The notes beneath the pieces were generated by a model that worked only from the letters and a program-made list of their open reading frames with translations, did not search any database and was not told the origin of the DNA. Both the position numbers and the translations under genes were made by a program. From NCBI GenBank assembly GCA_037137395.1, contig JBAXKK010000052.1, forward strand, positions 1 through 18,547: a stretch of 18,547 nt of DNA, written 5' to 3'. This DNA is from Elusimicrobiota bacterium (GTDB lineage: Bacteria; Elusimicrobiota; Elusimicrobia; Elusimicrobiales; UBA9959). Positions 11,795-14,836 of this stretch are shown piece by piece. Each line of letters starts with the position of its first letter. Within the stretch, counting starts at the first letter, position 1.

Positions 11795-13375
11795 CTATAA
11801 ATTACTATACAAAAATTGACCGTAAAAAAGCAAAAGCACCCTGAAAACATGTTTAGTCACAATTCTTGACTGAAGCTTGTGATCAAATTTTATGGCTTTT
11901 GTTTCAGTAACTACATAAACGCTATACCCTTTAGCAACAGCTTTAGCCGCGTATTTTTTCTCCAGGAACCTGGGCAGGAATGCGCACATATTGCCCAGCC
12001 GCTTACGGATACCCGGTGAAACATTTCCTGTTCCGCTGCTGATAAGTTTCAGCCCCAAAACTTCCGAGGCAACCGCCGCGTCAGGGCCGTAAAAAGCGTA
12101 AACCCGGCCCACCGGAAAAAACATTATGACCGGCCTTTCCCTGAAACATTGCTGCCCGCTTTCTTCAAAATAAAACTCAATCCCGGAAAGAACGCTTTTA
12201 AAAAATACATATTGAGCCGCCAGGTTTGGGAAATAACGCGGCGTAACCAGTTTAGCCACACGGTTAAATTCGCCCATAAACCCGTGCTTCCCGGCCATGG
12301 CGCTTTTTAGTTTGTAAGAATGGGCGTAGTTAAAATGCGCCTGGTAGGAATTAAGGCTGCTGTTGGCTTTTGCCACCACCGTCGGGTTAAATTCTATCGT
12401 GTTGCCTTTTACCGCTATTTTTCCGACCCGCTTCAATTCGCGCTTGAAATTATTTACAACCCTTTTGCGAACCAGCATATAGCCGGGCCGCACAATATAA
12501 CCCAGAAAATCTATCCCGTTTGAGACCGGCGCGATATGCTGTTTTTGCGGGTGTATCGTCAATTCCAGATTTTTACCGACAAAATCCGCTATTTTTTCGC
12601 GCCATAAAGCCAGCTCCCCGCTGTTTTCGGAAAAAAGAATAAAATCATCGACATAACGGATATAGCGCTTAACCTTTAACTCGCGCTTAACAAACTGGTC
12701 CAGCTCGTTTAAATAAACATTGGCGAAAAACTGGCTTGTAAGGTTTCCTATAGGCAGACCGCGTTTGGCGACGGCGTTAAACAGCGTTTTATGCGGCGGC
12801 AGCATTTTAAGCAGCCCCGCGGCACCCCTGAAAATATAATTCCGGGTGCAGTCGTTGTTTATTATCGTCTCCGCAAGCCACAAAGCATCCGGGTGGGAGG
12901 TCCCGCGCTTTATCAGGTTTAAAAGTATGGCTTTATCTATGCTGACAAAATAATTCCTGATATCCATCTGCAGATAAAACGCGCGCCTGGTGCCGTTTGC
13001 CGTAACCTGGCGCGTCAATGTCTGACACCGCTCCACACCTTTATGAGTTCCCTTCCCTTTTCTGCACGCGTAGGAGTCAAAGATAAATTTCGGCTCAAAT
13101 ATTTTCTCAAGATAATCCACTAAAACATGATGGATAATCCGGTCTTTGAAATCGGCGGCAAAAATCTCCCTGAATTTAGGCTTTTTAACCACAAAACAGA
13201 CAGAACGGGCTGGCTGATACGACCTTGTTTTCAGCTCCCTCTCCAGGCGGACCAGATTCTCCTCCAGATTAATCTCAAAGCGCAGCGCGTTGATGGTATT
13301 CCTTTTTCTTTCGCGGCATTTAAGATAACATCTGTGGATATTGGAGAATGAAAACAAGTCGTCTTTGTTTTTCAC
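11795..13375 (-). CDS. DGR reverse transcriptase with C-terminal MutS domain I-like extension
   Basis: KPKFREIFAADFKDRIIHH, DSYACRKGKGTH, QMDIRNYFVSID, DGR-type GLPIGNLTSQ, catalytic YVDD (12644-12655), GIDFLGY. The start is uncertain: GTG at 13375 (overlapping the TR-frame TGA) or TTG at 13393. Confidence 0.95.
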   Translation of the reverse strand: MKNKDDLFSFSNIHRCYLKCRERKRNTINALRFEINLEENLVRLERELKTRSYQPARSVCFVVKKPKFREIFAADFKDRIIHHVLVDYLEKIFEPKFIFDSYACRKGKGTHKGVERCQTLTRQVTANGTRRAFYLQMDIRNYFVSIDKAILLNLIKRGTSHPDALWLAETIINNDCTRNYIFRGAAGLLKMLPPHKTLFNAVAKRGLPIGNLTSQFFANVYLNELDQFVKRELKVKRYIRYVDDFILFSENSGELALWREKIADFVGKNLELTIHPQKQHIAPVSNGIDFLGYIVRPGYMLVRKRVVNNFKRELKRVGKIAVKGNTIEFNPTVVAKANSSLNSYQAHFNYAHSYKLKSAMAGKHGFMGEFNRVAKLVTPRYFPNLAAQYVFFKSVLSGIEFYFEESGQQCFRERPVIMFFPVGRVYAFYGPDAAVASEVLGLKLISSGTGNVSPGIRKRLGNMCAFLPRFLEKKYAAKAVAKGYSVYVVTETKAIKFDHKLQSRIVTKHVFRVLLLFYGQFLYSNL

Positions 13376-13484
13376 GCGCCGGCGCGGACGCAACGGACGT
13401 AGTTGTTGTTGTTCTTATTGTCGTTGTTCACGTTGCCATTGTTGAAGTTCACGTTCCACGCGTTGTCGGAATTCGGCACATTAG
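13372..13484 (-). repeat. DGR template repeat (TR)
   Basis: AAY-codon-rich, ungapped 113-bp homologue of 14075-14187. In the VR frame it reads NVPNSDNAWNVNFNNGNVNNDNKNNNNYVRCVRAGA*. Confidence 0.97.
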
Positions 13485-13583: not shown

Positions 13584-13994
13584 TTACATCCCGGGTGGCT
13601 GGGGCGCCCCGTGAATATGAGCTCGCTCCCTGTCCGCCTTAGGCGGACGGGGATTCTGGCTCCTCAGCCAACCATCGTTCTGTCCTGAGATTTCGATCAC
13701 CATTTTTATCAAACACTCAAATGAATTGAAGTTGGAAAATACCTTTAATTCCTTCGCTATCCTGGTCAGTATTTTCAGTTCTTCAAGCGATTCCCTGATC
13801 TCTGTCAGCGATCCTCGCTTATCCTGCTCCACATTAGCCCGCACAACCAGAATAAGAATCTTATGGGCTAAAGCCCTTATTTCAGAACCTATGGTATATT
13901 TATGGTATCTTGGAAACCCCCTGACGATTGTTTCCACATACACAGCCATGTCCATCGCTTTTTTATATATCGGAAGGTGTTCATATTGAGCCAT
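13584..13994 (-). CDS. avd: Avd-like accessory variability determinant (four-helix bundle)
   Basis: LPIYKKAMDM...FPRYHKYTIGSEIR...LEELKILTRIAKEL...EISGQNDGWL. It lies between VR and TR. The start is the ATG at 13994 or at 14012. Confidence 0.88.
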   Translation of the reverse strand: MAQYEHLPIYKKAMDMAVYVETIVRGFPRYHKYTIGSEIRALAHKILILVVRANVEQDKRGSLTEIRESLEELKILTRIAKELKVFSNFNSFECLIKMVIEISGQNDGWLRSQNPRPPKADRERAHIHGAPQPPGM

Positions 13995-14026
13995 AGTTAG
14001 CCTGATGGGCATAGCCTAGTGACTTC

Positions 14027-14051
14027 TTCCAAGGGGGCGGCCCCCTTGGAA
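14027..14051 (-). promoter_or_regulatory. DGR target-recognition hairpin/cruciform downstream of VR
   Basis: ttccaaggggg-cgg-cccccttggaa, a perfect 11-bp stem with a 3-nt loop, 23 nt past the target stop codon. No U-tract follows. Confidence 0.8.
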
Positions 14052-14074: not shown

Positions 14075-14187
14075 TCACGGGCCGGCGCGGACGCAACGGA
14101 CGTAGTTGTTGCCGCCCTTATAGCCGGCGTCCACGGCGCCATTGTAGAAGCGCACGATCCACGCGAGGCCGGAATCCGGCACATAAG
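14075..14187 (-). repeat. DGR variable repeat (VR) at the 3' end of the target gene
   Basis: Encodes YVPDSGLAWIVRFYNGAVDAGYKGGNNYVRCVRAGP*. It differs from TR at 20 adenine positions plus one G>C near the 3' end. Confidence 0.97.
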
Positions 14188-14836
14188 TGGTGCTGGACCA
14201 GTAATAATCACTCACAGTATTCGGAAAATATGTGGGGTCTATGGCAGGACGCTGGTTCTCATAATTCACGATGCTCATCAGCTCTCTGATATTGGGCAGA
14301 CGCCAGTCTGAATAGCCGGCAAAACTTGATGCGCCTTGTAAGCCTTGACAATATGCCCCGGCAGTTTCCCAGTCGGTACCGGTTCCGCTATTACACCCTG
14401 CGGCACTGCCGTCTTGCGCCCACATAAGGCCTGTCCTATTGTCAATTGTTACAGCATCACCATTGATAGTACTTGATGAATAACTTAGCTGAGCTCCAGA
14501 CACAATACCAGCATCATCGGTAAATGTGGTGGCAAAGCTGGTTGTTTGACCGGTGTCGGGTAACTCATGGCTTGAACCGCCGCCTGCGCCTGCGTATGTC
14601 CCGGTTATGCCGAATATAGTGGTGCTGACCGCGATATTCTCCGCTTTCAAATCCGGGTCCACGGCTGATAGCGTAGTGGTCGAGTAATAACCGGCCATCA
14701 CCGTTTCAGTGCTGGCGTCCAGCGCAACCTTTTTAGCGCCAAGGATATGCGTTGTGCCATCAGCAGCATAAGCGCCGCCGACCAGGCAGGTGAACAAAAT
14801 CATAGGCAATAGCGCGCTTTTACTTGTTTTTAACAT
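14075..14836 (-). CDS. Secreted DUF1566 (Lcl C-terminal / C-type lectin fold) DGR target protein
   Basis: Sec-type signal peptide ending GGAYA, then LPDTGQT, IDNRTGLMW, GYSDWRLPNIREL, YYWSSTT, AW.V.F..G, YVRCVR. SD AAGGAG overlaps the upstream stop codon. Confidence 0.92.
   Translation of the reverse strand: MLKTSKSALLPMILFTCLVGGAYAADGTTHILGAKKVALDASTETVMAGYYSTTTLSAVDPDLKAENIAVSTTIFGITGTYAGAGGGSSHELPDTGQTTSFATTFTDDAGIVSGAQLSYSSSTINGDAVTIDNRTGLMWAQDGSAAGCNSGTGTDWETAGAYCQGLQGASSFAGYSDWRLPNIRELMSIVNYENQRPAIDPTYFPNTVSDYYWSSTTYVPDSGLAWIVRFYNGAVDAGYKGGNNYVRCVRAGP

What the first reader, a model, noticed from the sequence alone, without database searches (positions are those of the whole stretch)
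11850..12225. DGR reverse transcriptase fused to a MutS domain I-like module lacking the Phe-X-Glu mismatch motif
Seen: the RT is ~530 aa, with well over 100 aa beyond the thumb. This tail reads AQYVFFK...VIMFFPVGRVYAFYGPDAAVASEVLGLKL...MCAF....EKKYAAKAVAKGYSVYVVTE...SRIV. It tracks the MutS N-terminal mismatch-binding domain consensus (QY..IK...LLFF..GDFYELF..DA..AS..LGI.L...MCG.P....Y...LV..GY.VA..EQ...R.V). The GDFYE motif is replaced by GRVYA, so the wedge Phe and Glu are missing. Established: stand-alone MutS-like (MSL) accessory genes occur in some DGRs. Here the domain is fused to the RT and co-occurs with avd. Inference: it may bind the mismatch-rich cDNA:VR or cDNA:RNA heteroduplex, shield it from host mismatch repair or aid integration, or it may be degenerating.
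Basis: partly seen in the sequence, partly recalled or inferred. Interest (0 to 1): 0.85.

Follow-up and report, generated by a model that had tools for sequence, protein, structure and literature searches.

The report
Mutator enzyme with remodelled MutS-like tail
The reverse transcriptase of this bacterial targeted-mutation element really ends in a copy of the mismatch-sensing domain of the repair protein MutS, a fusion reported in 2018; this lineage has lost the two mismatch-reading residues but keeps the domain and keeps mutating its target.

Summary
The window holds a complete DGR (target, avd, TR, RT); 20 of 21 TR/VR mismatches are at TR adenines. The 526-aa RT ends in MutS domain I (Pfam 34 bits, cut-off 20.6). 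E. coli Phe36/Glu38 align to Val425/Ala427.

The fusion is not new. Wu et al. 2018 (PMC5758913) report three such RTs, and this scan noted it on at least four other genomes.

Most fused relatives keep the motif (Phe/Tyr 90 of 93, Glu 79 of 93). One 14-member, Elusimicrobiota-like clade has lost it (Phe 3 of 14, Glu 0 of 14) and carries a conserved ~17-residue insertion.

The domain is not decaying there (dN/dS 0.10-0.38). Those DGRs stayed active: VRs track their own TRs, and another sample shows a VR variant with 14 of 15 listed changes at TR adenines.

Best reading: a retained, basic accessory domain that has given up MutS-type mismatch reading and probably holds nucleic acid non-specifically. 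Its function is untested. Verdict: a modest variant of a known design.

The parts
11795..13375 (-). DGR reverse transcriptase with C-terminal MutS_I domain, 526 aa from GTG (532 aa from TTG at 13393); start codon overlaps the end of the TR
   Evidence: AlphaFold2 model mean pLDDT 91.1, pTM 0.83; best structural match 8ub7
11846..12238 (-). MutS domain I-like tail (residues ~380-510)
   Evidence: Pfam PF01624 above cut-off; profile hits to solved MutS/MSH3/MSH6; hhalign to host MutS 97.7%; 10-residue block pLDDT 83-97 over residues 381-510
12095..12109 (-). Altered mismatch motif: G423-R424-V425-Y426-A427 at the place of E. coli G34-D35-F36-Y37-E38
   Evidence: covered without change by contigs of runs X2, X3, X4
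12134..12181 (-). Clade-conserved ~17-residue insertion (residues ~399-414), modelled as a two-strand hairpin before the first MutS_I strand
   Evidence: Tyr, Glu, Gln, Phe, Arg invariant in 14 of 14 clade members; also in P0017, P0018, P0027; strands E399-403 and E409-413 in the model
11999..12022 (-). Second, ~8-11 residue insertion (residues ~452-459) just before the Gly-Phe-Pro motif, whose Gly is eroded in this clade
13372..13484 (-). Template repeat (TR), 113 nt, 36 adenines
13584..14012 (-). avd accessory gene, 142 aa
   Evidence: Pfam bAvd E 3.1e-13
14027..14051 (-). 11-bp stem, 3-nt loop hairpin 24 nt after the VR (DGR target-recognition type)
   Evidence: z -2.47 for the 68-nt stretch; 3 of 200 shuffles fold as well
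14075..14187 (-). Variable repeat (VR) at the 3' end of the target gene
   Evidence: 20 of 21 mismatches at TR adenines; variant VR in run X2
14075..14836 (-). Target gene, 253 aa, with a C-terminal Lcl_C (DUF1566, C-type-lectin-fold) domain and a signal-peptide-like N-terminus
   Evidence: Pfam PF07603 E 3.8e-38; signal peptide judged by eye, not tested

Best explanation
SHOWN: a complete, recently active DGR of the avd-TR-RT type rewrites TR-adenine positions in the tip of a DUF1566/Lcl_C protein. Its RT carries a MutS domain I inherited from a broad family of RT-MutS_I fusions, most of which keep Phe/Tyr-X-Glu. In one nested clade the mismatch-reading surface was dismantled: Glu is gone in all, Phe is free to vary, and the upstream Gln and the Gly of Gly-Phe-Pro are eroded. 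The fold core stayed under purifying selection and a hairpin insertion was fixed. INFERRED: in the motif-retaining majority the domain wedges into the mismatch-rich cDNA:VR heteroduplex and competes with host MutS, which would otherwise revert the new variant. In this clade it no longer reads mismatches MutS-style. It works as a basic, tethered, non-specific grip on nucleic acid (cDNA, RNA:cDNA hybrid or target DNA) after the thumb, aiding hand-over of the cDNA to the target. MutS-type mismatch recognition by the tail is therefore not required for retrohoming here.
For: Motif counts: clade Phe 3 of 14, Glu 0 of 14; others Phe 76, Phe/Tyr 90, Glu 79 of 93 (107 of 120 homologs had a tail of 70 aa or more). 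An independent library gave aromatic-X-Glu in 65 of 76 RT/thumb-linked domains. The 13 full-length clade members form one group (UFBoot 99; tree on RT core and thumb only), nested among motif-bearing lineages, with an F-X-R sister. Of 98 shared columns, those losing most conservation in the clade include the Gly of Gly-Phe-Pro (first), the wedge Phe (second) and the Gln four before it (fourth). Tail dN/dS is 0.10-0.38 in 10 of 10 pairs among five clade loci, against 0.16-0.45 for the thumb. Tail identity at matched core identity is no lower inside the clade than outside. Net charge of the window's tail is +9, host MutS domain +4; terminal Arg in 12 of 14. Activity: VRs follow their own TR at lineage-specific non-A sites; 98 of 102 TR/VR mismatches at TR-A in 4 motif-less loci against 322 of 344 in 10 motif-bearing loci; variant VR in X2. 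The host has mutS and mutL. mutS deletion raised VR mutagenesis 5-10-fold in Bacteroides (10.1101/2024.11.15.621889, passages). Mutating Phe36 or Glu38 abolishes mismatch recognition (PMC3848065, PMC12292046, passages).
Against: No binding or function was measured; the nucleic-acid-grip role rests on fold, charge and context only. Mean tail charge is lower in the clade (+6.8) than outside (+10.1), which fits weaker binding or a purely structural role. Close RT relatives lack the tail altogether (47 of 64 loci had no tail hit, about a dozen of them with RT frames open at the locus end), and the Bordetella DGR has none, so the domain is dispensable in many DGRs. TR/VR pairs were pre-filtered at 70% or more A-mismatches, which biases the activity tally. 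The X2 variant is one contig at depth 4.6 with 20 more listed differences upstream in the target gene, and 11 of its 46 differences were not shown. Structure searches were filled by the RT domain, so the tail was not superposed on MutS. Clade members are kin, so the motif counts are not independent events.
Confidence: 0.5

Rival explanations
1. The tail is now structural only: it packs on and stabilises the thumb and no longer touches nucleic acid; selection preserves the fold, not a binding surface.
For: Conserved positions in the clade are largely hydrophobic core residues and glycines; surface motif positions vary; mean charge is lower than in motif-bearing tails. pTM 0.83 for the two-domain model suggests a defined packing.
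Against: Tail-less RTs of the same wider family exist, so the thumb can fold without it. The fixed insertion with invariant Tyr, Glu, Gln, Phe, Arg and the terminal Arg look functional.
Confidence: 0.2
2. The tail still recognises mismatched or looped DNA but by new contacts: aromatic residues of the inserted hairpin replace the wedge Phe, as MSH3 recognises loops without Phe-X-Glu.
For: The insertion is highly conserved exactly where the motif is lost (low pN). MSH3 lacks the motif (PMC3848065, passage); its loop specificity is recalled, not looked up.
Against: The insertion also occurs in P0017, which keeps F-Y-E, and in P0018 and P0027, which keep the Phe, so gain and loss are not tightly coupled. 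The position of the hairpin relative to a DNA-binding face could not be measured here.
Confidence: 0.15
3. The tail is a protein-interaction module (for Avd, a host recombination or replication factor, or a decoy for the repair machinery) rather than a nucleic-acid binder.
For: avd accompanies it: 12 of 13 candidate ORFs tested in fused loci hit bAvd, and all MSL-bearing DGRs in Wu 2018 have avd. An unchecked scan note reports an MSL-Avd fusion.
Against: Avd is in 74% of all DGRs, so co-occurrence is weak evidence. In the Bordetella structure Avd binds the RT N-terminal extension, not the thumb.
Confidence: 0.08
4. The tail is a degenerating relic.
For: The signature residues are lost. One sister-group protein (P0017) has an internal deletion in the domain, and the last ~15 residues differ among members. 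One family relative (L086) has an N-terminally broken RT.
Against: dN/dS 0.10-0.38; no faster divergence than in motif-bearing lineages; domain present in all 14 clade members (one, P0007, ends short), which are 62-82% identical to the window RT; confident fold.
Confidence: 0.07

Closest known systems
DGR RTs with a C-terminal MutS_I motif (three related RTs, Wu et al. 2018, NAR 46:11, PMC5758913; rows FP929063.1, FR695874.1, AMWB01060384.1)
   Same: RT of about 500 aa with MutS_I after the thumb; DUF1566 (CLec2) targets; two of three have target-avd-TR-RT (architecture B1) and no separate MSL gene.
   Different: The passages I read make no statement on Phe-X-Glu; I did not read their RT alignment (Supplementary Data 4). 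This clade lacks the motif and has two insertions, while most fused relatives keep it.
Stand-alone MSL/Msl accessory proteins of DGRs (16 in Wu 2018; Bacteroides Msl in 10.1101/2024.11.15.621889)
   Same: MutS domain I without ATPase, beside avd; Glu absent in 16 of 16 (my reading). Three same-order genomes have such a gene next to a DGR RT, with Phe-X-Arg.
   Different: Separate gene; the wedge Phe is kept in 16 of 16, whereas here it is lost; many MSL proteins have an extra C-terminal helical segment.
MutS/MSH6 mismatch-binding domain I
   Same: Significant profile match along the domain.
   Different: No connector, clamp or ATPase domains; Phe36 and Glu38 equivalents are Val and Ala; the host has its own intact mutS and mutL on contig C9.
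[quoted passage not shown] 2017, PMC5512222)
   Same: MutS-I reused outside MutS by mobile elements, proposed to bind ssDNA features (passage); such proteins were recovered by the tail profile.
   Different: Not linked to an RT or DGR; often several copies, with ArdC-N.
Bordetella phage BPP-1 DGR (mtd-avd-TR-brt)
   Same: Gene order, A-specific TR/VR differences, post-VR hairpin, RT fold (8ub7, Z 30.3, 33% identity).
   Different: bRT ends at the thumb with no additional subdomain (10.1101/2023.10.23.563531, passages).

Membership tests
Diversity-generating retroelement | DGR-class RT with intact catalytic motif | tested here: met
   RVT_1 70.3 bits; YVDD and IGNLTSQ present; best structural match is the DGR RT 8ub7
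Diversity-generating retroelement | TR/VR pair differing at TR adenines, VR in a coding target | tested here: met
   20 of 21 mismatches at TR-A; 36 of 113 TR bases are A
Diversity-generating retroelement | avd accessory gene and post-VR hairpin | tested here: met
Diversity-generating retroelement | Ongoing mutagenic retrohoming | tested here: inconclusive
   Supportive: X2 variant with 14 of 15 listed VR changes at TR-A, 5 of them also in an X4 contig that reaches the hairpin and avd start. Contigs only, low depth, list cut; L017 has an identical VR.
RT-MutS_I fusion of DGRs (Wu 2018) | MutS_I motif in the same reading frame, C-terminal to the thumb | tested here: met
   junction spanned by an X2 contig with no difference or gap
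MutS domain I (PF01624) | Profile score above the curated cut-off | tested here: met
   34 and 37 bits against 20.6
MutS domain I (PF01624) | Structural superposition on solved MutS domain I | tested here: inconclusive
Mismatch-recognising MutS/MSH6-type domain | Phe-X-Glu wedge motif | tested here: not met
   Val425-X-Ala427
Mismatch-recognising MutS/MSH6-type domain | Preferential binding of mismatched DNA | not testable with these tools
   needs a binding assay
MutS repair ATPase | Domains II-V including the ABC ATPase | tested here: not met
   Only RVT_1 and MutS_I are found, at E up to 10; the protein ends about 16 residues after the domain
Stand-alone MSL accessory protein | Separate small ORF in the DGR cassette | tested here: not met
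   Fused here; 17 of 17 tail hits in 64 related loci were fused, none separate

The most novel reading that the evidence does not exclude
The clade is a natural experiment in rewiring. A DGR-borne anti-repair module passed from Phe-X-Glu through Phe-X-Arg/Lys (as in stand-alone MSLs) to a motif-free form. In that form a newly fixed aromatic hairpin recognises a different retrohoming intermediate (bubble, cruciform hairpin or RNA:cDNA junction). The RT would then carry its own target-engagement domain, a handle on the unsolved cDNA-integration step and a part for raising DGR editing in repair-proficient cells.
Probability: 0.15. Interest if true: 0.7.

Novelty: new variant of a known kind. Interest (0 to 1): 0.32.

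Why it matters
How mismatch-laden cDNA is integrated and escapes host repair is an open step in DGR biology, and host MutS limits DGR output in Bacteroides. I found no functional test of MSL or of the fused domain (searches). This family supplies matched natural versions of one fused domain: Phe-X-Glu intact, Phe-X-Lys/Arg, motif-free with a hairpin, and tail-less. Domain swaps can therefore ask directly whether mismatch reading matters. The fusion itself is published and was met repeatedly by this scan, so the added value is the clade-level motif loss together with continued selection and activity.

Tried and rejected
Single-sequence search of the tail against solved structures found nothing useful (one hit, E 1.1); profiles were needed. 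The first AlphaFold2 job on 5 sequences failed (pLDDT 34) and was discarded. Foldseek and two VIA searches of the good model listed only polymerases, so they say nothing on the tail. A two-copy complex prediction of the tail gave no answer (score 0.01); it is no evidence either way. The search for shorter forms returned 1 hit among 23 candidates, an RT fragment with the tail attached, not a stand-alone version. Two other TR-like places in the genome (C137, C147) have many non-A mismatches and were rejected as current targets. L017 is 100% identical over 9578 nt and may be the same population, so it is not independent. No RNA holder was listed. The promoter/terminator scan gave no more than shuffles (2 against 3.8; 5 against 4.6). 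Fisher tests of motif counts are not used, because clade members are kin. Lcl_C hits at the N-terminus of some RT records are taken as the TR read in frame, not as true fusions (inference). The motif string printed for L009 was a pattern mismatch; one search gives the right one. Rows dropped: 13 of 120 homologs with tails under 70 aligned residues (several end inside the domain or at the thumb); P0028 left out of the trees as N-terminally truncated; the IQ-TREE run used 35 selected sequences. Roux et al. 2021 (PMC8144416) has no main-text mention of MutS or MSL.

Full report
Observation. The minus strand carries target gene (14075-14836), avd (13584-14012), TR (13372-13484) and RT (11795-13375) in that order. 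TR and VR differ at 21 of 113 positions, 20 of them TR adenines, and an 11-bp hairpin follows the VR. The RT frame is uninterrupted. Its tail scores 34 bits against Pfam MutS_I, cut-off 20.6. A profile of 15 tails matches Taq and E. coli MutS, MSH3 and MSH6 and the host's own MutS at 97.7%. By those alignments E. coli Phe36 and Glu38 correspond to Val425 and Ala427. Contigs from run X2, another study than the possible source, bridge the thumb/tail junction without change; X3 and X4 cover the motif unchanged. An AlphaFold2 model from 102 sequences is confident over both parts (mean pLDDT 91.1, pTM 0.83). The Bordetella DGR RT covers residues 5-368 of it. The tail itself was not superposed on MutS, because polymerase matches filled every list.

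Prior knowledge. Wu et al. 2018 (PMC5758913; main-text passages, table rows and supplement part 74 read) state that about 20% of DGR RTs have a C-terminal extension of up to about 150 aa and that three related RTs match MutS_I there. Two of the three have target-avd-TR-RT with DUF1566 targets, as here. They also define stand-alone MSL genes. I found this before consulting the scan's notes, which list the same fusion on at least four other genomes, three with the motif intact (unchecked notes). Five literature searches gave no paper that tests MSL or the fused domain, or that describes loss of the motif in it. The library lacks most subscription papers. I did not read bioRxiv supplements (closed) or Wu's RT alignment, and either may bear on this.

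The family. Of the 120 best homologs of a 5-sequence profile (the profile includes the tail, so the list favours tailed RTs), 107 have a tail of 70 aa or more. Among 93 outside the window's clade, the wedge position is Phe in 76 and Phe/Tyr in 90, and Glu is present in 79. In the 14-member clade Phe occurs in 3 and Glu in 0. A separate library search gave aromatic-X-Glu in 65 of 76 RT- or thumb-linked domains. On a tree of RT core and thumb, the 13 full-length clade members group at UFBoot 99, with a Phe-X-Arg sister (95), nested among lineages that mix Phe-X-Glu and Phe-X-Lys/Arg. The faster FastTree run supported the clade only weakly without that sister (0.37). Named members are Elusimicrobiota, and two same-family genomes encode clade RTs, so the host is inferred to be of that phylum. 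The fusion is sporadic: 3 of 61 genomes of the order have it; three carry a stand-alone MSL with Phe-X-Arg beside a DGR RT (one of these also has the fusion); all 61 have a long MutS-sized match. In Wu's 16 stand-alone MSLs I read Phe in 16 and Glu in 0, so Glu loss is ordinary and Phe loss is the rarer feature.

Not decay. Within the clade the tail has dN/dS 0.10-0.38 over 10 pairs of five loci, similar to the thumb (0.16-0.45) and above the RT core (0.08-0.18). dS is 0.7-1.3, so values are rough. At matched core identity the tail is as conserved inside the clade as outside. What erodes is selective: the Gly of Gly-Phe-Pro, the wedge Phe and the Gln before the motif rank first, second and fourth of 98 columns in loss of conservation. 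The Gly column is alignment-sensitive because of the nearby insertion. The clade has a ~17-residue insertion with Tyr, Glu, Gln, Phe and Arg invariant in 14 of 14, modelled as a hairpin, and a second shorter insertion. The first also occurs in three relatives that keep the Phe, one of them the whole motif, which counts against a simple compensation story.

Still active. TR/VR pairs were found in 14 of 17 fused loci. In four motif-less loci 98 of 102 mismatches are at TR adenines, against 322 of 344 in ten motif-bearing loci (pairs were filtered at 70% A, and some loci are near-duplicates). Where TRs of motif-less lineages differ at non-A sites, the VRs follow their own TR, except at one site near the 3' end. 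Copying therefore continued after these lineages split. Run X2, whose listed contigs match this RT and TR exactly, has a VR with 15 listed changes, 14 at TR adenines. X4 shares five and links them to the hairpin and avd start. Against this: it is a single low-depth contig, 20 further listed changes lie upstream in the target gene, and 11 of its 46 differences were not shown.

Mechanism. Phe36 stacks on the mismatched base and Glu38 hydrogen-bonds to it; mutating them abolishes discrimination (PMC3848065 and PMC12292046, passages). DGR heteroduplexes are repaired all-or-none by host MutS, and mutS deletion raised VR mutagenesis 5-10-fold in Bacteroides (10.1101/2024.11.15.621889, passages). Two E. 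coli reconstitutions disable repair (PMC12875486 and 10.64898/2026.07.21.739853, passages), while mutS is not required for the Bordetella DGR. This host has mutS and mutL. A MutS domain without ATPase, tethered to the RT and keeping the motif, is thus plausibly a shield or guide for the heteroduplex (inference). In this clade that reading surface is gone while the fold, a net charge of +9 and a terminal Arg remain. I put 0.5 on a non-specific nucleic-acid grip, 0.2 on a purely structural role, 0.15 on rewired recognition through the hairpin, 0.08 on a protein-interaction role and 0.07 on decay. MutS-I domains reused by mobile elements and proposed to bind ssDNA offer a precedent for the first (PMC5512222, passage). 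None of these functions was tested.

Verdict. A real feature and a member of the published RT-MutS_I class of DGRs; not a MutS and not a motif-bearing mismatch sensor. The new element is a clade-wide loss of Phe-X-Glu with a fixed insertion, under purifying selection, in DGRs that kept working. It is useful as a natural control for the untested MSL hypothesis, but it is a variant of a known design: interest 0.32.

Noticed in passing
window:14846-16501 (-): 551-aa Thr/Ala/Gly-rich gene directly upstream of the DGR target, no Pfam hit; its C-terminal part and the target both have paralogs side by side on contig C137, suggesting a repeated surface-protein plus Lcl_C pair.
   Followed up: partly
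G000 contigs C137 (about 38-150) and C147 (about 1856-1970): TR-like stretches in lectin-type genes with many non-adenine differences: possibly former or orphan DGR targets.
   Followed up: partly
window:14251-14546 and 14552-14814: Runs X2 and X4 carry divergent, partly mosaic alleles of the target gene upstream of the VR while listed RT and TR contigs are identical, hinting at recombination of the target gene outside the VR.
   Followed up: partly
L083:3673-4080, L084:3507-3836, L085:600-1079: Stand-alone MSL genes with Phe-X-Arg near DGR RTs in same-order genomes; L085's looks truncated and L083's RT looks broken.
   Followed up: partly
L022:3935-5500, L023:2375-3877, L027:3935-5437: Related DGR-type RTs with a long C-terminal extension that is not MutS_I; L022 and L023 have no Pfam hit there, L027 was not scanned.
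   Followed up: no
protein P0023 (676 aa): RT-MutS_I followed in frame by a signal peptidase S26 domain; may be a read-through or frameshift artefact.
   Followed up: no
proteins P0192, P0242, P0267: Proteins with tandem MutS_I domains, one fused to a Prim-Pol domain and one to DUF2510.
   Followed up: no
window:18362-18547: Long 4-nt tandem tract running off the contig end; may be an assembly-end artefact.
   Followed up: no
window:16716-18283 (-): PorV/UPF0164-like outer-membrane gene and a gene with a weak C-terminal sorting-domain (CHU_C/FlgD) hit upstream of the DGR region.
   Followed up: no
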